Origin: a virus
Taxonomy: Duplodnaviria; Caudoviricetes
Length of the DNA: 64,000 nt
Virus record (IMG/VR): IMGVR_UViG_2832249651_000002
Span: 11,383 to 75,382 of that record
Strand: one strand, 5' to 3'
Shown here one piece after another: positions 48,490-63,268 of the stretch (position 1 is its first letter; each line of letters begins with the position of its first letter). The position numbers were made by a program, and so were the translations under genes. The notes beneath the pieces are model-generated. The model was not told the DNA's origin, made no database searches, and saw nothing but the letters and a program-made list of their open reading frames with translations.

Positions 48490-49898
48490 TCAAATGGTAC
48501 CTTCAATGGATAAAGGTTTTTCTTCCCTCGAATGTTTGTCATTATCAACGCTAACACCTCCATTACTCAAGCTAATCCTAATATTTTCACTTGGCTTGTT
48601 GCCTATAGCTTTTTCAACTCCCATGACTTCTTGAGCCGCTTTATCTGCATCTATCCAATCCATCAATTGAGCTATTACATAGAATTGTTGTTTCATCAGA
48701 TTAACATTAAGTCTTTGTTCTTCGGATTCCCAATCAACGATATCATGCTTAAACTTAGCAATAGCCTGTTCGCCATTAACCCTTAACCATAGTCTAGCTA
48801 TTTCTTCAATAATTCGCTTAGAACCTCTTTGACAAGAGTTAATACCACTAACAAATATCTTAAATTGAACGGTTCCCCAAGATTCAGTCACACCCTGATT
48901 TCTATTCATAAAAATAGCCATCTGTTTTAATCCAGATAGCGTTTGAGTATCAAGCATTTCAGTTATTGCTCTAACATCAAGACTTCTTCCGCCATTAGCT
49001 CCATTAGTCATATTAATTTTCACATCATCAAAATGAATATAATCACTATCAGGAGCAATGTTTTCCATCATATTAACAATATTATTATGTTGTTCATTGA
49101 GCCAATTTTGAAGTTCTTTGGGATTGTTTTTTATATGTGGAGGGCAGTAGGTCATAAGTCTCTCCAAGACAATCTCAATATCATTTCTAGGATAGCCTTG
49201 ATGATGGAGTACGGCTTGAAGGTCTTGGAGTATCTGCATTTGAAAATCTATAGCCTGTAATACAGGAGTCATTGTTAATGTTCCTCTAGGGTCGCCAATA
49301 TCAGGGTCAGTAGGTACCCAAAAGAAGTTAGCATGTTCTTTATCAAGGTAAATTTTCTTATGCATATCATACTGGAACGGTACCCATATTTTACGACCTT
49401 TGATTTCTTTAAGTTCCCACTCAATAGTTTGCGGTTTGACAGGATAGACGTCATATATATCTTTTCTATTAGGAGTAACCTCACTTCAACACCCATAGCA
49501 CCTAATAAAAAAGAGCTGTGATGTAATTGATCTATCAATCCATCAAGCCCACTATTGGATATTTCGTTTATCCTTGAAGCAAAATCTCTCCATCTATCTT
49601 CTAAATCAGTTCTTCTAGTCTTGCCATCAATAGCATAGAAGTGCATCTCGTTTCCTTGATTAGCTAATCTTACAAAATTCCACACTGCCATACTAATGTC
49701 AGGATTAACTCTTTTTAAATATTCTATAGCTGCAGCTTCCTCTGGAATACTTCTTAAAGTTTTAAGCACATCACCAGTCCTTGAACGAAAAGGGGAGAGG
49801 GTAGAGGTATAACCATTATTTATTTGAGTTTGTCTACCAGTAGGAATATGCCGAGGTTCAGCTCTTGCTCTTGCAAATTGTCTATTAGAAAGTCCCAT
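48490..49898 (-). CDS. Portal protein (1-bp frameshift at about 49483)
   Basis: Two ORFs join as AMGVEV|EVTPNRKDIYDVYPV; located between terminase and protease. Confidence 0.8.
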
Positions 49899-51321: not shown

Positions 51322-52902
51322 TTAATCTGTTTTACTGATTCCACTAACTTTGCCCATCCAAGGTAATAGTAGGGCAGGGGACTGGAAGTCACTAAAACAG
51401 AAATACAAGGCACTTACAATATCATCATGGCCACTGTCGGTAGCATTGTGATATTGAGTTGTTCTTCCTTCTCTATCCACAGATACATAGTCTTGTAATT
51501 GCTTTTCAGTTTCAGCACTCCAAGGTATTTGACACCATTGTTGTTCTACTACTACTGCAAAATCTTCAACTAATTTAGCCTTATTATTACCTTGTTCATT
51601 TATAGGTACATTAGGTATTCCTCTTTTAGTAAGTTGTGAACCAATGGTTTCACCAAGTCCAGTTTGACCAAAGTTTACAGTAGCACCATTATATAATCTT
51701 GAATACATAGCTAATTTATCCCATTGAGCATCCCATCCAAGTCTACTCATAAGGTCAATTTTAACAACTTTTCCTTTACTATCTCTAATAACACAAGGCT
51801 TACCATCGCCCTTAGATGCAGGGTCATAGCCTATAGTATATGTTTCGAATGGGTCAACTTTTTCCCATTCAGACCAAAATTCAGCCATAGCTTCATCTGA
51901 ACGACAATCGAGTGGAGGCCTAACGAGAACTCTGTCATAGTGAGGGAATACGGAGTTAATCTCCATGATGAATTCAGCTAGATAGTCTTGCCTGTATCTA
52001 TCATTAGTCATTCCCATCTTAATCTCATCTTCAAAGGTGATAGGATTACCCATTGAATCTTCGCCAACAATAGTGTATCTTTTAGCTGCCATATGAGGGT
52101 TATCCCATGTTGAAAAATGAAATGTTTCGTAAGAAGGAGAGTAGAGAGAAGAATCTTTATCTCCCATTAAAGATAACTTATAGAAATAAGTCCGACCTCT
52201 AGGAGTACTGTTGATTAATGCGATTCCGCCTTTGCCACCTGGACCTCTACCAGGTGAGTCAAGTCTTTGTCTAAGGTTAGCCCAAACTGTATCAAGTTCT
52301 TTAACTCTAGCAGCCTCGGTTATAGTTACAATATCAAGACCAACTCCGACTAAAGTTTCAGGGTCATCAGCTGAGTGGACTTCTATGATTCCACCATTGA
52401 TAGTTTCTATAGTTAGATTAGATAGTGAGATGTCATAAACTAGTTCCTTAGGTAGTAACTTCTTTAAATCACGCCAATTTTGCCTTGCTAATCTCATATT
52501 AGGAGCAACTATCCACCAAAGTACAGGAGGATTTACATCAATGGAACGTTCCTCATTTTCCATTTCTATAAATCTCATTACACCTTCGCCAATAGATCCT
52601 AAGTCTTTTCCAAAACGGTTCCCACAGACAAGTATCTTAAATCTGGCTTCACTATCATGAATCTTCTGTTGTGCAGCATGGGGAGAGTAGGGGATAGTGA
52701 CTTTCTTAAATCCATTGGCTTTTGCCATTCGACAAGAGCCACAAGTCTTTTGATTATTGTATCTATTTTGTGAAGGAACCCAAACTCTTTCAAAATGCTT
52801 TCCACATTCTTCACATATTCCAATTCTTTCAGCAGAGGAATGCTGTATATATTTTTCATTTATACGGTCAATTCGACCAATTGAGCCACCTTTTCTAGGC
52901 AT
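51322..52902 (-). CDS. terL: Terminase large subunit
   Basis: PH.AQ, Walker A GNRFGKD, TEAA, STP, GYDPA and HDD nuclease motifs; ATG at 52902 after GGAAGGTGA. Confidence 0.92.
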   Translation of the reverse strand: MPRKGGSIGRIDRINEKYIQHSSAERIGICEECGKHFERVWVPSQNRYNNQKTCGSCRMAKANGFKKVTIPYSPHAAQQKIHDSEARFKILVCGNRFGKDLGSIGEGVMRFIEMENEERSIDVNPPVLWWIVAPNMRLARQNWRDLKKLLPKELVYDISLSNLTIETINGGIIEVHSADDPETLVGVGLDIVTITEAARVKELDTVWANLRQRLDSPGRGPGGKGGIALINSTPRGRTYFYKLSLMGDKDSSLYSPSYETFHFSTWDNPHMAAKRYTIVGEDSMGNPITFEDEIKMGMTNDRYRQDYLAEFIMEINSVFPHYDRVLVRPPLDCRSDEAMAEFWSEWEKVDPFETYTIGYDPASKGDGKPCVIRDSKGKVVKIDLMSRLGWDAQWDKLAMYSRLYNGATVNFGQTGLGETIGSQLTKRGIPNVPINEQGNNKAKLVEDFAVVVEQQWCQIPWSAETEKQLQDYVSVDREGRTTQYHNATDSGHDDIVSALYFCFSDFQSPALLLPWMGKVSGISKTD

Positions 52903-52931
52903 AATATCACCTTCCAAAGTAGGCTCAAGGC

Positions 52932-53060
52932 TCAAATATTTATTTCTATTTCTTTTTTACATTGTTTGCACCATATAAATATCTTTTTAGCTTTACTTTC
53001 TTTTTCAACCCTGCATAGTTTTTTACCACAGTGAGGGCAGAGGTACCATTCCTTAGTCAT
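52932..53060 (-). CDS. Com-like zinc-ribbon protein (42 aa, not in ORF track)
   Basis: MTKEWYLCPHCGKKL..IWCKQCKKEIEINI followed by TGAGCCTTGAGCC. Confidence 0.7.
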   Translation of the reverse strand: MTKEWYLCPHCGKKLCRVEKESKAKKIFIWCKQCKKEIEINI

Positions 53061-53061
53061 G

Positions 53062-53463
53062 TTAAGACCTCAAATCTCTTACTGGAAGCCCTGCATCTTT
53101 TAGAGAGTGCCATATATCAAGAAACATTCTTTTATAGAAGCCATTGGCATATCTGCGAGAACCATCTCCCCAATCGCTGTATCGTTCCATAAACCCTATA
53201 TCTATCGGCTCACTATTGTCAGATAAAGCGAGGTATATACAATGTACAGTTGTCTTCCCAGTACTCCTGTTTCTAGCACGACATTTTTTGCCGTCAAAAT
53301 GAGATATACAAGATTTAACGACACTTTCTTTATAAGAGAATAATAAGCAAGGGCATATATCAGGAAATGGAGTTCTATTAATTAGCCACTCTTTCTGCCA
53401 TGGATAAAGTTTCATATTTAAAACTTTTTCAATCAAAGGTATAGTTTCTTCTGTTATTTCCAT
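53062..53463 (-). CDS. Hypothetical protein with degenerate P-loop
   Basis: Start MEITEE at 53463; LYPWQ..R.TGKTT. Confidence 0.65.
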   Translation of the reverse strand: MEITEETIPLIEKVLNMKLYPWQKEWLINRTPFPDICPCLLFSYKESVVKSCISHFDGKKCRARNRSTGKTTVHCIYLALSDNSEPIDIGFMERYSDWGDGSRRYANGFYKRMFLDIWHSLKDAGLPVRDLRS

Positions 53464-53539
53464 ATAATCACCAACTTTCAAGTATAAAAATAGCCCAGTC
53501 CTCGTAAGGAACATGGGCTTGAGTAGTAATATATAATTT

Positions 53540-53615
53540 TGGCAGGCACCTAGGGAATTGAACCCTACACAGTCGGATTTGGAGTCCAACTCGCCACCTT
53601 GGAACATGGGCACCT
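53540..53615 (-). tRNA. tRNA-Trp (CCA)
   Basis: Anticodon arm TTGGA-CTCCAAA-TCCGA; T loop GGTTCAATTCC; encoded 3' CCA. Confidence 0.85.
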
Positions 53616-53620
53616 ATATT

Positions 53621-53705
53621 TGGTGAGAAGTGGGTGAGTCGAACGCCCCGAGTCTAAGACAACTGATTTACAGTCAGCACCGCTACCTCTACGGTATAAC
53701 TACCC
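53621..53705 (-). tRNA. tRNA-Tyr (GTA)
   Basis: Anticodon arm GCTGA-CTGTAAA-TCAGT; long variable arm; GTTCGACTC; 3' CCA; mismatches in acceptor and T stems. Confidence 0.8.
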
Positions 53706-53710
53706 ATAAT

Positions 53711-53735
53711 AAAACCCGTCATATTCGACGGGTTT
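53711..53735. terminator. Intrinsic terminator after the PemK-Schlafen gene
   Basis: aaacccgtc-atattc-gacgggttt. Confidence 0.65.
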
Positions 53736-53785
53736 AGAATTTAATTTCGCATAGAAAAAGAAACCTTATAAGAGTACTATAACAA

Positions 53786-54670
53786 TTATTTGTTATTTAA
53801 TGAATCTATTAGGCGTTTTTTGACTATAGTTTGCATTTCTATTATATCTAATTCTTGACTTGTGCCATCATACCTTACATAAAGTTTATTATCATTTGAC
53901 AGGTATATAATTGTTTTATCAAATGCTGCGGGTATAGAAATTTCAATTACAAAAAGATTATTATGAGTTTGATTATTTTTGATTACGGGAATAAATTCTA
54001 TAATAAAATCATCTGCTATAACTTTAGGCTTAATATCATAAATTTTACTAAATATTAGTTGGCGAATATTATCTTTTTGTTCACTACTTAATTCAATCCC
54101 TTTAATTATTCTTTTATCTGTAATACCATATAATATTCGTCCACCTTTAGAATTAAGAAATGAACATATATATTTTAGAATGGATTTTTTTATTATATCA
54201 TGATAATTATCTTCAGATCTAATTTCTTTGAATTCATAATTTATATTTTCTTCTTTTGGATATTTGCAATCATATACCAATGAGTCATTAATTTCAAAAG
54301 AATAATCTGTTGATTTTATTGATGTTGCATTTGAAGATATTACATACTTTATCCAAATATTTACTAAAGAGTCTATAATGCTTTGTGGTAGGGTACTTAT
54401 TCTATCGGTAAGTAGGTTAACATCTAGGAATATACTATCCAAGATTAATGCATAAGATTTAATAGGTAATTTGGATAGATTCTCAGGAATTTCAAAAGTA
54501 GTCTTATATTTGTTAAATCTAGAATTTGAAGTTAATGGAACACATAAAACCCTATTATAATAATTATTCATAAATTTATTTGATAAAACAATAAAGGGCC
54601 TCTTAGATTCTGGAGCTTTACTTTGATCGTTGTATTGATTCACAAAAAAGATATCACCTTGTTGTATCAT
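53786..54670 (-). CDS. PemK/MazF-family RNase fused to a Schlafen/AlbA_2 domain
   Basis: N-terminus QGDIF..KRPFIVLSN..VPLTS; C-terminus EENINYEFKE..CSFLNSKGG.I.YGITD..YVR. Confidence 0.85.
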   Translation of the reverse strand: MIQQGDIFFVNQYNDQSKAPESKRPFIVLSNKFMNNYYNRVLCVPLTSNSRFNKYKTTFEIPENLSKLPIKSYALILDSIFLDVNLLTDRISTLPQSIIDSLVNIWIKYVISSNATSIKSTDYSFEINDSLVYDCKYPKEENINYEFKEIRSEDNYHDIIKKSILKYICSFLNSKGGRILYGITDKRIIKGIELSSEQKDNIRQLIFSKIYDIKPKVIADDFIIEFIPVIKNNQTHNNLFVIEISIPAAFDKTIIYLSNDNKLYVRYDGTSQELDIIEMQTIVKKRLIDSLNNK

Positions 54671-54745
54671 AATAATACCTCATTTCTAAATAATTTTAAT
54701 ATATATTATTATACAACAAATACAGTAGTCTTGCTTAATAAAAGG

Positions 54746-55228
54746 TTATTTTGTATAATAACTCCAATTTTCCTTAACAAATCCCCTTATACCAGTACCA
54801 GGATTATACTCAGGATATAACTTTAAGAATTCAGCTTCAACATCTTCCAAAGTTTCACCTTCAATTAATCTATGCTTTACTAGATAGAGTAGGGCAAGGG
54901 AAGGGGAGCGACTAAATCCTTCGTTGCAGTGGATTAGAACTTTCAATCCTTGATTAAGTTTCTCATGAATAAAATCTAATGCCTTGTCAATCATGCCTTT
55001 GTCAAAGAATATTGACTTTGGAGCATCAACTATATTCATGTAAAGTCTATTTCCACGTTTAGCCCATAGGTATTCTGGATGGTCCTTAGGAGCACCTTTA
55101 GTAGCATAGCCCAATAATTGTCTATGGAACGGCTCTTTACATGCGTGACAAATAGCAAAGTTATTGTTCAATGCTTCAGGAACATCATATTCATTTCCAA
55201 CAAATAATCCTTTAATTACTTCTTTCAT
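54746..55228 (-). CDS. Dual-specificity (CX5R) phosphatase
   Basis: LFVG..VLIHCNEGFSRS..P...P..G. Confidence 0.85.
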   Translation of the reverse strand: MKEVIKGLFVGNEYDVPEALNNNFAICHACKEPFHRQLLGYATKGAPKDHPEYLWAKRGNRLYMNIVDAPKSIFFDKGMIDKALDFIHEKLNQGLKVLIHCNEGFSRSPSLALLYLVKHRLIEGETLEDVEAEFLKLYPEYNPGTGIRGFVKENWSYYTK

Positions 55229-55374
55229 TTACATTCCCTCCTTAATTAATTTCATATCATAGATATACCCTTTGTCATGGTTTCCAACATAAAAATAAAA
55301 GAACTCTTCAAATGAGTTCAATTCAATTATTTCAATATTGTTCCAATCAAATTCTTTGCAAAATTTAAGTTCAA

Positions 55375-59286: not shown

Positions 59287-59378
59287 TGGCGGAGAAGGAG
59301 AGATTTGAACTCTCGTATCTCATAAGAGATATCTTCCTTAGCAGGGAAGTACCATCAGCCTAGCTCGGTCACTTCTCC
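59287..59378 (-). tRNA. tRNA-Ser (GCT)
   Basis: GGAGAAG/CTTCTCC acceptor stem; CTTCC-CTGCTAA-GGAAG; long variable arm; GTTCAAATC; 3' CCA. Confidence 0.9.
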
Positions 59379-61337: not shown

Positions 61338-61745
61338 ATGAATAATATGGCTAAATACGTATATCCTGCTATTTTCTCAAAAGAGGAAAATGGATTGTAT
61401 TCAATAGTCTTTCCTGATTTTGAGGCATGTTTTACTCAAGGTGACGATATTCAAGATGGGTTATTTATGGCGAATGATGTACTATGCTTAACTCTATATG
61501 ATATGGAAGAAAATAAAAAGGAGATTCCAACTCCATCAGACCCATTAAAAATCAAAGTTGAAAATAATGAATTTGTCACATTAGTGAGTTGTGATACTCT
61601 AGAATATCGTAAGTTCTATGATAATAAAGCTGTAAAGAAAACATTAACGATTCCGTCATGGTTGAATACGATGGCAGAGAGAGAAGAGATTAACTTCTCA
61701 CAATTGTTACAAGAAGCGTTAAAAGACAGATTACAAATACAATAA
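61338..61745 (+). CDS. hicB: HicB antitoxin
   Basis: YPAIF..FPDF..CFTQGD..KKTLTIP.WLN..INFSQLLQ.AL. Confidence 0.92.
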   Translation: MNNMAKYVYPAIFSKEENGLYSIVFPDFEACFTQGDDIQDGLFMANDVLCLTLYDMEENKKEIPTPSDPLKIKVENNEFVTLVSCDTLEYRKFYDNKAVKKTLTIPSWLNTMAEREEINFSQLLQEALKDRLQIQ

Positions 61746-62689: not shown

Positions 62690-63268
62690 TTGTTTGATAA
62701 AATAAATTTAAAAGAAGTTTTTTCTTTACCATTTAGAATATATTTCTCTGTGCTAGTTGGATTAGGATTGTTATTATTTTTACCTTCTGGAATAATAGGC
62801 AAGCTATATCTTGATGAATTTTTAAATAAGTATGGTATTTATGTAGGCTTTGCATTTATCATTCTTTTTTCAATAGTAGTATTTTCTATTATAGGTAAGA
62901 TCTTTATATTAATTAAAAATAAATACTCGAATTACAAATTTAATAGAAATAAAGATAAGGTTTTGGAAGGCTTAAATCCTAATGAAAAAGCTATTTTGTA
63001 TCTATTCTATAAAAGCGAAACTAATACATTATATTTGCCATATAATGATGGTTTAGTTGCTAAGTTAAGAAGTTTTTTTATTATTACTCCTACAACCAAC
63101 TCTATAATTACTGGGAATTTAAATAATCCTAGATTCCCATTTATGATGCAGCCTTGGGTTCATGGTTATATAGACAAAAACTACAATGAGTATTTTAAAG
63201 GAATTGATTTAAATGAAGAAGAATTATATGGTATTTTACAAAACTTTTCGACTTCTGAATTATATTAA
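62690..63268 (+). CDS. Superinfection exclusion B (SieB)-like membrane protein
   Basis: 2 TM (LLFLP..Y..Y.G..F), L..L...EKAIL..F, V..L....II, QPW. Confidence 0.7.
   Translation: MFDKINLKEVFSLPFRIYFSVLVGLGLLLFLPSGIIGKLYLDEFLNKYGIYVGFAFIILFSIVVFSIIGKIFILIKNKYSNYKFNRNKDKVLEGLNPNEKAILYLFYKSETNTLYLPYNDGLVAKLRSFFIITPTTNSIITGNLNNPRFPFMMQPWVHGYIDKNYNEYFKGIDLNEEELYGILQNFSTSELY

What the first reader, a model, noticed from the sequence alone, without database searches (positions are those of the whole stretch)
53540..54745. Antitoxin-less PemK/MazF-Schlafen double-RNase fusion placed directly upstream of phage tRNA-Tyr and tRNA-Trp
Seen: a 294-aa, very AT-rich gene with an upstream TATAAT and a downstream terminator (moron signature). 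The N-terminal domain keeps PemK catalytic motifs (KRP, PLTS). The C-terminal AlbA_2/Schlafen domain keeps ExxxxEFK, FLNxxGG and GIxD. There is no MazE-like partner. Two tRNA genes follow within about 80 bp, and tRNA-Ser lies upstream in the same direction. Known: MazF proteins are endoribonucleases (some cut tRNA); Schlafen domains are tRNases, human SLFN11 prefers long-variable-arm tRNAs, and bacterial Schlafens have been linked to anti-phage defence; bacterial Ser and Tyr tRNAs have long variable arms. Inference: a self-inhibited or phage-triggered tRNA-cleaving defence or host-shutoff protein, with the phage's own tRNAs as possible immunity. I do not know of this architecture being characterised.
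Basis: partly seen in the sequence, partly recalled or inferred. Interest (0 to 1): 0.8.

Follow-up and report, generated by a model that had tools for sequence, protein, structure and literature searches.

The report
Prophage MazF–Schlafen fused nuclease gene
An integrated phage carries, as a swapped-in cargo gene, one protein that joins a MazF-type RNA-cutting toxin to a Schlafen-type tRNA nuclease with no antitoxin gene; it is most likely a stand-alone anti-phage defence gene, and its position next to two phage tRNA genes looks coincidental.

Summary
Window 53786..54670 (-) encodes a 294-aa protein with PemK/MazF (residues 4-101) and Schlafen AlbA_2 (141-274) domains, both above Pfam cut-offs. 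The MazF R24/T47 and the Schlafen E141-x4-E146-x-K148 and D185 residues are intact. There is no MazE-size ORF beside it. A tRNA-Tyr-like gene and tRNA-Trp lie 80 bp downstream.

New findings:
- The element is an integrated temperate prophage (integrase, CI-like repressor), not a lytic phage.
- The gene is a ~1.0-kb, 24.5% GC cassette in a cargo hot spot. Two related prophages carry other cargo there. Contigs of two public runs keep both tRNAs while skipping the gene.
- The architecture recurs in at least 26 protein clusters, all named ones in Bacillota. All six homologue loci lack tRNAs and a MazE. One sits directly after QatABCD.
- The Schlafen site is invariant across 24 fusions, whereas the MazF Arg is lost in 4.

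Best reading (0.55): a prophage-borne, single-gene prokaryotic-Schlafen defence tRNase. Its MazF module serves as co-effector, RNA sensor or dimeriser. The "phage tRNAs as immunity" idea is not supported. This is a new variant of a known kind, and I found no description of the fusion in print.

The parts
53786..54670 (-). MazF-Schlafen fusion gene, 294 aa, 24.5% GC
   Evidence: ORF; Pfam PemK_toxin + SLFN_AlbA_2; AF2 model mean pLDDT 87.2; GC
54368..54661 (-). MazF/PemK domain (residues 4-101), with R24 and T47 aligned to R25 and T48 of the host's own MazF
   Evidence: Pfam; BLASTP to host MazF without gaps; Foldseek 5hkc_B E 8.2e-9, TMt 0.86
54251..54367 (-). Linker (residues 102-140): helix 96-111, then low-confidence segments 114-121 and 134-138
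   Evidence: AF2 pLDDT and secondary structure; variable in length and charge across the family
53849..54250 (-). Schlafen (AlbA_2) nuclease domain (residues 141-274) with E141-x4-E146-F-K148 and D185
   Evidence: Pfam; phmmer to SLFN13 N-domain 5yd0_A (E 1.5e-8) and SLFN11 7zel_A (E 5e-6), with the motif aligned; Foldseek 5yd0_A E 3.9e-8
54678..54713 (-). Upstream signals: TATAAT at 54713..54708 and GAGG at 54681..54678, 7 nt before the ATG
   Evidence: Read from the sequence; promoter-like sites are not above chance in this region
53712..53735 (-). Terminator-like hairpin followed by a U-run. It is kept in variants that lack the gene, so it belongs to the hot-spot backbone.
   Evidence: Fold -13.7 kcal/mol, z -4.5; X3 contig covers up to 53743 and X1 up to 53721; similar hairpin in G057
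53744..54767 (.). Approximate cargo cassette (1,024 bp, 24.0% GC), replaced by 177-239 other letters in related prophages
   Evidence: Contig joints 53721->54768 (X1) and 53743->54771 (X3); GC
53621..53705 (-). tRNA-Tyr(gta)-like gene, 85 nt, long variable arm, sub-threshold. A neighbour, not shown to be a functional partner.
   Evidence: ARAGORN only at -ps95; Rfam 21.7 bits; 80-83% identity to annotated phage tRNA-Tyr genes
53540..53615 (-). tRNA-Trp(cca), with a terminator-like hairpin after it at 53492..53519
   Evidence: ARAGORN; fold -13.8 kcal/mol, z -3.1

Best explanation
The gene is a stand-alone defence (abortive-infection type) gene carried as exchangeable cargo by a temperate prophage.

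- **Effector (inferred from family knowledge).** The C-terminal single-lobe Schlafen domain is a metal-dependent tRNase, as in the characterised prokaryotic Schlafens.
- **N-terminal module (inferred).** It derives from the Firmicute EndoA/MazF toxin and supplies one or more of three things: a second sequence-specific RNase activity, single-stranded-RNA binding that senses infection, or the dimer interface that brings two Schlafen lobes together.
- **Control (inferred).** The protein is probably kept inactive by its own fold or oligomeric state rather than by an antitoxin. It would be switched on when another phage infects the lysogen, stopping translation and aborting the infection.
- **tRNAs.** The neighbouring tRNA genes are older residents of the same hot spot, not partners.

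**Shown:** the architecture, intact active-site residues, absence of any partner gene, cassette behaviour, prophage setting and the defence context of one homologue.

**Inferred:** the RNase activities, the trigger, autoinhibition and the defence phenotype.
For: 1. **Two domains with catalytic residues.**
2. **Temperate prophage.** Integrase at C11:644-1849, CI-like HTH repressor, antirepressor and Rha; host metabolic genes from about C11:76.5 kb. Structural genes are in the window. SieB and a HicB-like gene lie at the prophage end.
3. **Cargo hot spot.**
   - The gene is 24.5% GC against 35.0% and 35.8% for its flanking genes.
   - G057 (83-90% identical backbone) has a 69-aa ORF there, and G049 has a DUF2321 protein.
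   - X1, X2 and X3 contigs join across the gene with 239, 535 and 177 other letters between.
4. **A real, stand-alone family.**
   - 19 of the 74 proteins scanned (of the best 150 hits) are PemK+SLFN. Three more were checked, and four are.
   - 0 of 6 full-length homologue loci have a MazE-size ORF upstream or a shared neighbour.
5. **Defence context.** The Cytobacillus homologue lies 86 bp after QatD of a complete QatABCD system. The Paenibacillus homologue is about 2 kb from a small serine recombinase. L058 lies between a DUF3800 protein and a ResIII helicase.
6. **Conservation across the 24 fusions.**
   - E141, E146 and K148 are in 24 of 24, and D185 in 21 of 24.
   - The MazF Arg is in only 20 of 24, and Thr/Ser in 21 of 24.
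   - So the Schlafen site is the constant requirement.
7. **Published function.** Prokaryotic Schlafens are anti-phage tRNases fused to varied domains (PMC13056530 sections 6, 10 and 11; PMC13462974 abstract and section 11; PMC13552941 passages).
Against: - There is no PADLOC hit for the protein.
- Only 1 of 6 homologue loci is next to a system that PADLOC recognises.
- No expression data exist: no RNA run holds the stretch.
- The gene is co-oriented with the late operon and could be expressed in the lytic cycle.
- No trigger is known.
- An intact MazF active site without an antitoxin would normally be toxic, and nothing here shows how that is avoided.
- The linker is not consistently acidic (net charge -8 to +2 in 24 sequences), so it gives no support for a MazE-like pseudo-substrate.
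- pTM is 0.59, so the relative position of the two domains is not predicted.
- G057 lacks the gene and both functional tRNAs together. That is compatible with a linked module.
Confidence: 0.55

Rival explanations
1. Toxin held by an antitoxin after all, in one of two ways. In cis, the Schlafen domain or the linker masks the MazF site, giving a fused toxin-antitoxin. In trans, the host's chromosomal EndoAI/MazE holds it. Loss of the labile antitoxin during phage-induced shutoff would free the protein. In this reading the MazF domain is the main effector or the switch.
For: - The host has a canonical alr / RHH antitoxin / mazF operon (C2:147942-148265).
- The MazF domains of other family members are 60% identical to that host MazF (P0004), so cross-binding is conceivable for them.
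- The fusion keeps R24 and T47.
Against: - This prophage's MazF domain is only 23% identical to the host MazF.
- 4 of 24 family members have lost the catalytic Arg while all keep the Schlafen site, so MazF catalysis is not the family's constant.
- The linker is not MazE-like in charge.
Confidence: 0.15
2. This is a phage weapon used in the lytic cycle to cut host tRNAs or mRNAs (host shutoff). The phage's own tRNA-Tyr, tRNA-Trp and tRNA-Ser would act as resistant replacements or immunity.
For: - The gene is co-oriented with the late genes and sits 80 bp from tRNA-Tyr-like and tRNA-Trp.
- The phage tRNAs differ strongly from the host's Tyr and Trp tRNAs.
- G057 lacks the gene, tRNA-Tyr and the 5' part of tRNA-Trp together.
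- Phage tRNAs that evade defence tRNases are cited in PMC13056530 (reference list only).
Against: - 0 of 6 homologue loci have a tRNA within their fetched flanks, which total 1.3-12.9 kb per locus.
- X1 and X3 contigs hold both tRNAs and skip the gene.
- By my mapping of the differences onto the cloverleaf, the X1 and X3 alleles have G-C and U-A where this copy has G.U and C.A. The copy beside the gene is the weaker one.
- The element is temperate.
- Homologues sit in bacterial chromosomes, one of them next to a defence system.
- Full-length copies are rare among phages. None of the 3 matching records of 50,697 in the phage collection covers 80% of the protein. In IMG/VR, 0 of 5 confirmed loci are full-length, although that scan was limited by its search patterns.
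Confidence: 0.1
3. Not an active nuclease. It would be a nucleic-acid-binding or regulatory protein built from two binding folds, or a cargo gene already on its way to decay.
For: - Databases annotate AlbA_2 proteins as DNA- or RNA-binding or as regulators (names).
- The prophage may be defective, because its portal gene is split by a frameshift.
- Some family members have lost MazF catalytic residues.
Against: - The ORF is intact, and every catalytic residue of both domains is present here.
- The Schlafen motif is invariant in 24 of 24 fusions, which points to selection on catalysis.
Confidence: 0.1

Closest known systems
Prokaryotic Schlafen defence nucleases (pSlfn: RorSlfn5, EcoSlfn7; PMC13056530) and CRISPR-associated Schlafen Cash (PMC13462974)
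   Same: - A single-lobe Schlafen domain with the Ex4(E/D)xK motif, fused to a variable second module in one polypeptide.
- Found on mobile or variable DNA.
- The nearest Schlafen-domain relatives are fused to DNA methylases, HEPN_Toprim_N and ABC/SMC ATPases. This matches the methyltransferase and ATPase clusters described in PMC13462974 section 11.
   Different: - The fused module is itself a toxin RNase (MazF) placed N-terminally, not an Ig-like, DUF262, histidine-kinase/HTH or nucleotide-sensor domain.
- It is carried by a prophage.
- No trigger is known.
- MazF and PemK are not mentioned in the main texts searched. Supplementary Table 2, with its 55 architectures, was not seen.
MazEF / EndoAI-EndoA type II toxin-antitoxin systems (B. 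subtilis, S. aureus MazF; PDB 4mdx, 4me7, 4mzm)
   Same: - The family profile matches S. aureus and B. subtilis MazF at E 1e-41 to 1e-40.
- The fold match has TMt up to 0.88.
- The catalytic Arg and Thr are kept.
   Different: - There is no adjacent antitoxin here or at the six homologue loci.
- The toxin is fused to a second nuclease.
- It is only 23% identical to the host's own MazF.
- The catalytic Arg is dispensable in 4 of 24 family members.
Fused toxin-antitoxin defence proteins such as CapRel(SJ46) (recalled, not looked up here)
   Same: A single polypeptide on a prophage with a toxin domain and a second domain that could both restrain it and sense phage. No separate antitoxin gene.
   Different: The enzymes differ: a pyrophosphokinase acting on tRNA rather than RNases. 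Here the second domain is itself a conserved nuclease, and nothing shows that it inhibits the first.
Eukaryotic SLFN11/12/13/14 tRNases
   Same: The catalytic E-x4-E-x-K and the later Asp align directly. Foldseek matches SLFN12, SLFN13, SLFN11, SLFN14 and SLFN5.
   Different: There is only one AlbA_2-like lobe (about 150 aa) instead of the two-lobed N-domain, and no helicase domain. The preference of SLFN11 for long-variable-arm tRNAs is recalled, not tested, and cannot be transferred. RorSlfn5 cuts Lys, Met and Ala tRNAs instead.

Membership tests
Prokaryotic Schlafen (pSlfn) nucleases | Schlafen/AlbA_2 domain above the curated threshold | tested here: met
   PF04326, 62.9 bits against cut-off 25.3
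Prokaryotic Schlafen (pSlfn) nucleases | Catalytic Ex4(E/D)xK motif (PMC13056530 section 6) and the downstream Asp | tested here: met
   E141-NINY-E146-F-K148 and D185. The motif is invariant in 24 of 24 fusions and the Asp is in 21 of 24. It aligns to the motif of SLFN13 and SLFN11.
Prokaryotic Schlafen (pSlfn) nucleases | Schlafen nuclease fold | tested here: met
   AF2 pLDDT of about 84-97 over residues 141-294. Foldseek: 5yd0_A E 3.9e-8, 7zep_A E 3.0e-7, 9o0d_C (SAMD9 tRNase) E 1.4e-7.
Prokaryotic Schlafen (pSlfn) nucleases | Mn2+-dependent tRNA cleavage and protection against phage | not testable with these tools
   Needs biochemistry and plaque assays
Prokaryotic Schlafen (pSlfn) nucleases | Association with defence genes or mobile elements | tested here: inconclusive
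   - 1 of 6 homologue loci directly follows QatABCD.
- 1 is near a serine recombinase, and 1 lies between DUF3800 and a ResIII helicase.
- 3 have no informative neighbours.
- The window copy is prophage cargo near SieB and HicB-like genes.
MazF/PemK endoribonuclease (protein family) | PemK_toxin domain and MazF fold | tested here: met
   PF02452, 49.5 bits against cut-off 23.1. Foldseek 5hkc_B E 8.2e-9, TMt 0.86.
MazF/PemK endoribonuclease (protein family) | Catalytic Arg and Thr (R25/T48 of B. subtilis MazF; the residue roles are recalled) | tested here: met
   R24 and T47 align without gaps to R25 and T48 of the host MazF
MazEF type II toxin-antitoxin system | Cognate antitoxin gene adjacent, normally upstream in the same operon | tested here: not met
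   There is no ORF of 40 aa or more in the 75-bp upstream or 80-bp downstream gaps. The same holds at 6 of 6 homologue loci. The only RHH-MazF pair is the host's own, on contig C2.
   0 of 6 homologue loci have tRNAs. X1 and X3 contigs hold the tRNAs without the gene.

The most novel reading that the evidence does not exclude
The MazF module is not a toxin here but a guard-type sensor borrowed from the host's housekeeping EndoA. It is held by the host's labile EndoAI antitoxin, or by a specific single-stranded RNA. Phage-induced shutoff removes that ligand, the MazF dimer rearranges, and the two Schlafen lobes are switched on as a tRNase. That would be a defence protein that monitors the state of a chromosomal toxin-antitoxin system. 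It would also explain why the family needs no antitoxin gene of its own, and why MazF catalytic residues can be lost while the Schlafen site never is.
Probability: 0.12. Interest if true: 0.75.

Novelty: new variant of a known kind. Interest (0 to 1): 0.5.

Why it matters
Prokaryotic Schlafens were shown only in 2025-2026 to be anti-phage tRNases whose fused domains are thought to be sensors. A recurrent fusion to MazF puts two RNases in one antitoxin-less polypeptide. MazF is the best-known toxin-antitoxin RNase.

This raises a concrete, testable question: how is such a protein kept silent, and which domain senses and which kills? The family split offers natural mutants, since 20 members keep the catalytic MazF Arg and 4 have lost it.

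The locus also gives a clean example of a prophage cargo hot spot with at least three alternative cargos. It also shows that a gene lying next to phage tRNA genes need not be functionally linked to them.

Tried and rejected
- **The search for related loci with the 24-sequence alignment.** It failed because no stretch was conserved enough. I repeated it with a 6-sequence alignment.
- **PADLOC.** No family matched the fusion or the neighbouring phosphatase.
- **Phage collections.**
  - tblastn matched 3 of 50,697 records, all Lactobacillus/Lactiplantibacillus phages, and none covered 80% of the protein.
  - In phage ATCC 8014-B2 the match is an 86-aa PemK ORF (the match also overlaps the ORF before it) followed by a 116-aa ORF.
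  - That ORF has no Pfam hit, no ExxxxEFK motif and only weak similarity (E 4e-4). I do not count it as a fusion.
  - IMG/VR gave 5 loci, all matching only the MazF part.
- **Acidic-linker idea.** I tested whether the linker is a MazE-like pseudo-substrate. Its net charge ranges from -8 to +2 and is -1 in the window protein, so there is no consistent signal.
- **Conserved upstream partner.** The upstream ORFs of L058/L060 and L009/L061 are unrelated.
- **The upstream DSPc phosphatase as partner.** Rejected, because it is kept in G057, G049, X1, X2 and X3, all of which lack the fusion.
- **Expression.** No RNA holder is listed.
- **Read laying.** No contig covers 53791-54681, apart from small pieces of unrelated X2 contigs (a 24-nt piece is listed). 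I use only the contig joints as evidence.
- **Left unexamined.** L040 (match to residues 2-199) and the other 73 of the 150 best hits (apart from P0102, P0106 and P0119) were not examined.
Full report
**1. What is at the coordinates.**
- The minus strand holds one open frame of 294 codons at 53786..54670.
- Pfam finds two domains above their curated cut-offs. PemK_toxin covers residues 4-101 (49.5 bits, cut-off 23.1). SLFN_AlbA_2 covers residues 141-274 (62.9 bits, cut-off 25.3).
- An AlphaFold2 model built on 24 family sequences has mean pLDDT 87.2. It shows two confident domains joined by a helix (96-111) and two low-confidence segments (114-121 and 134-138). pTM is 0.59, so the mutual position of the domains is not predicted.
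- Foldseek matches the N-terminal part to MazF structures: M. tuberculosis MazF-mt3 5hkc_B (E 8.2e-9, TMt 0.86), S. aureus MazF and B. subtilis MazF. It matches the C-terminal part to SLFN12, SLFN13, SLFN11, SLFN14, SLFN5 and the SAMD9 tRNase domain.
- A profile of the family hits S. aureus and B. subtilis MazF at E 1e-41 to 1e-40, and SLFN13/11/14/12 at 1e-16 to 1e-12.

**2. Catalytic residues.**
- R24 and T47 align without gaps to R25 and T48 of the host's own MazF. The catalytic role of those two residues in B. subtilis MazF is recalled, not looked up.
- The C-terminal domain alone aligns to SLFN13 and SLFN11. E141, E146 and K148 fall on the E-x4-E-x-K motif, and D185 falls on the Asp of the G-x-D-D segment.
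- PMC13056530 (section 6 read) calls Ex4ExK the catalytic motif of SLFN11 and Ex4(E/D)xK the conserved prokaryotic motif. Its E15A/D20A mutant of RorSlfn5 is inactive (sections 10 and 11).

**3. Signals and neighbours.**
- The gene is 24.5% GC. Its flanking genes are 35.0% (phosphatase) and 35.8% (TerS-like). It ranks third lowest of 53 ORFs of 150 aa or more.
- A GAGG lies 7 nt before the ATG, and a perfect TATAAT lies 37 nt upstream. Promoter-like sites in the region are no more frequent than in shuffles, so the promoter remains unproven.
- A hairpin with a U-run follows the stop codon (-13.7 kcal/mol, z -4.5).
- Upstream lies a 160-aa dual-specificity-phosphatase-like gene, and beyond it an ERCC4 nuclease.
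- Downstream lie a tRNA-Tyr-like gene, tRNA-Trp, a 136-aa ORF, a 42-aa zinc-ribbon ORF and the large terminase.
- No antitoxin-size ORF is present on either side.

**4. The tRNAs.**
- ARAGORN at default settings calls tRNA-Trp and tRNA-Ser but not tRNA-Tyr. At 95% of its threshold it calls tRNA-Tyr(gta) at 53621..53705, with a U.U mismatch in the acceptor stem, a C.A mismatch in the T stem and a weak D stem.
- Rfam gives 21.7 bits for the Tyr stretch (cut-off 29). It gives no threshold-level tRNA match for the Trp stretch, but a clear 51.6 bits for tRNA-Ser.
- The Tyr stretch is 80-83% identical to tRNA-Tyr genes of enterobacterial phages. That was the only part of the 3-kb query that matched any of 1,137 phage records.
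- One such gene is a canonical ARAGORN call, and it has perfect stems where this copy has mismatches.
- The host has two tRNA-Tyr genes and one tRNA-Trp gene of quite different sequence.

**5. The element is a temperate prophage.**
- The window is C11:11451-75450 of a 4.39-Mb, 31.3% GC assembly.
- The first 11 kb of the contig hold a tyrosine integrase, a CI-like HTH repressor, an antirepressor and a Rha regulator. From about C11:76.5 kb the genes are ordinary host metabolism: xanthine dehydrogenase, shikimate pathway, PBP and Mur ligase.
- The window holds the major head, portal, terminase, tape-measure and tail proteins, a sigma factor, DnaD-like and helicase genes. Near its right end it holds a HicB-like gene and a SieB super-infection exclusion gene.
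- The portal gene is split by a frameshift relative to the intact 459-aa portal of a related prophage. Whether that is real or an assembly error is unknown.

**6. The gene is exchangeable cargo, and the tRNAs do not depend on it.**
- A DNA search of the 81 genomes of the family found two related prophages.
- In G057 (83-90% identical backbone), 289 bp replace window 53592-54753. That stretch holds a 69-aa ORF, a similar terminator hairpin and only the 3' part of tRNA-Trp. No tRNA is called there.
- In G049 a 160-aa DUF2321 zinc-ribbon protein sits between the phosphatase and the terminase.
- Contigs of public runs laid on 52900-55300 show three further joints:
  - X1 has one contig covering 53232-53721 with 3 differences (both tRNAs). 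It then continues at 54768 with 239 other letters between.
  - X3 has a contig covering 53591-53743 that continues at 54771 with 177 other letters.
  - X2's main contig joins 53473 to 54754 with 535 other letters. A minor 193-nt contig, identical to the window, covers only the tRNAs.
- Both tRNAs therefore occur without the fusion gene, and the gene is a cassette of about 1.0 kb.
- Two of the differences in X1 and X3 fall in tRNA-Tyr, at 53626 and 53645. Mapped onto the cloverleaf, they turn this copy's G.U (pair 2-71) and C.A (T stem) into G-C and U-A. This is my inference from the two tables. It argues that the stretch is a real tRNA and that the copy next to the fusion gene is the weaker allele.

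**7. The family.**
- A full scan of 1.84 billion representatives gave 936 hits at E 1e-3 or better.
- I scanned 74 of the 150 best with Pfam (P0012-P0085):

| Architecture | Proteins |
|---|---|
| PemK+SLFN | 19 |
| N6_N4 DNA methylase+SLFN | 15 |
| HEPN_Toprim_N+SLFN | 6 |
| SMC/ABC-type ATPase+SLFN | 4 |
| Receiver, RRM, SH3 or WD40 partner | 1 each |
| SLFN with no other family | 26 |

- Three more fusions were confirmed, and four came from the word-index search.
- Named members come from Priestia, Anaeromicrobium, Paenibacillus and Cytobacillus, in clusters of 1-3 sequences.
- In 24 aligned fusions:
  - The Schlafen E, E and K are invariant.
  - D185 is in 21 of 24, with Asn in the other 3.
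  - The MazF Arg is in 20 of 24 (the others have K, P, E and E).
  - The Thr/Ser is in 21 of 24.
- Two members carry a shared extra N-terminal domain of about 165 aa.
- Other members' MazF domains are 60% identical to the housekeeping MazF, while this one is 23% identical.

**8. Contexts of homologues.** Six loci with a full-length fusion were recovered: 2 of 44 genome loci and 4 of 80 metagenome loci.
- None has a tRNA.
- None has an antitoxin-size ORF upstream.
- Their upstream genes are unrelated to each other.
- The Cytobacillus copy starts 86 bp after QatD of a complete QatABCD system (PADLOC E 1e-19 to 1e-104).
- The Paenibacillus copy lies about 2 kb from a small serine recombinase. That gene class is reported as a marker of defence islands (PMC13552941, abstract and passages).
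- L058 lies between a DUF3800 protein and a ResIII helicase with weak PbeA/type IV restriction hits.

**9. Reading.**
- The strongest constant in the family is the Schlafen active site. The setting is cargo on mobile or variable DNA. The published function of single-lobe prokaryotic Schlafens is phage-triggered tRNA cleavage.
- I therefore read the gene as a prophage-borne, single-gene defence nuclease of the pSlfn kind (confidence 0.55).
- The MazF module's role is open. It could be a second RNase, an RNA sensor or a dimeriser. How the protein is kept harmless without an antitoxin is not shown.
- The rivals are regulation by a cis or host antitoxin (0.15), a lytic-cycle host-shutoff weapon with tRNA immunity (0.10), and a non-catalytic or decaying protein (0.10).

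**10. Novelty.**
- Full-text searches gave the following:
  - Schlafen+MazF gave 1 paper, an unrelated co-mention.
  - Schlafen+PemK gave 0 papers.
  - AlbA_2+toxin-antitoxin gave 3 papers. I judged them by the search listing only, and none is about such a fusion.
- The main text of PMC13056530 has no occurrence of MazF, PemK or toxin. Its Supplementary Table 2, which lists 55 architectures, and Supplementary Data 3 of PMC13462974 could not be seen and may list the fusion.
- On this basis it is a new variant of a known kind.

Noticed in passing
window 48490..49898 (-): The portal gene is split into two overlapping ORFs. The 207-aa ORF aligns to residues 1-141, and the 291-aa ORF to residues 179-459, of the intact 459-aa portal of the related G057 prophage (L162:2089-3468). 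This is either a frameshift that would make the prophage defective, or an assembly error.
   Followed up: partly
window 61338..61745 (+) and 62690..63268 (+): A HicB-like antitoxin-family gene and a SieB super-infection exclusion gene (Pfam E 1.9e-28) lie at the right end of the prophage. So this prophage carries other lysogen-protecting cargo too.
   Followed up: no
L154:275-3046 (G057) compared with window 51322..52935: The large terminase of the related prophage is 923 aa instead of 537. A long insertion sits directly after 'KILVC' in the nucleotide-binding region and ends in 'SHN' before 'CGNRFGKD'. It looks like an intein.
   Followed up: no
window 53473..54770; L154:3608-3961; L155:1920-2866: The stretch between the DSPc phosphatase and the terminase genes is a cargo hot spot with at least three alternative contents. 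Here it holds MazF-Schlafen plus tRNAs. G057 has a 69-aa ORF plus a tRNA-Trp remnant. G049 has a DUF2321 zinc-ribbon protein. Contig joints in X1, X2 and X3 show further inserts of 239, 535 and 177 letters.
   Followed up: partly
window 54746..55228 (-): A 160-aa dual-specificity-phosphatase-like protein (DSPc E 2.3e-10; weak hit to the Rit1 tRNA-phosphoribosyl-transferase DUSP-like domain). It is conserved in all related prophages seen. Its function in a phage is unknown.
   Followed up: no
P0014 and P0119: Three-domain relatives of the fusion. A shared N-terminal domain of about 165 aa with no Pfam family precedes MazF-Schlafen. It is a candidate added sensor.
   Followed up: no
P0011: A 2,337-aa protein matches residues 155-193 of the query (the helix plus the FLNSxGG segment) in 20 separate stretches. 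This repeat protein is unexplained.
   Followed up: no
window 59287..59378 (-): tRNA-Ser(gct) of the prophage is fully canonical (Rfam 51.6 bits), unlike the weak Tyr and Trp genes. The host has its own tRNA-Ser(gct) of different sequence.
   Followed up: no
L155:5028-5097 (G049): An int-alpA RNA (RF02996) match above the gathering score (44.1 against 35.8 bits) in the related prophage.
   Followed up: no
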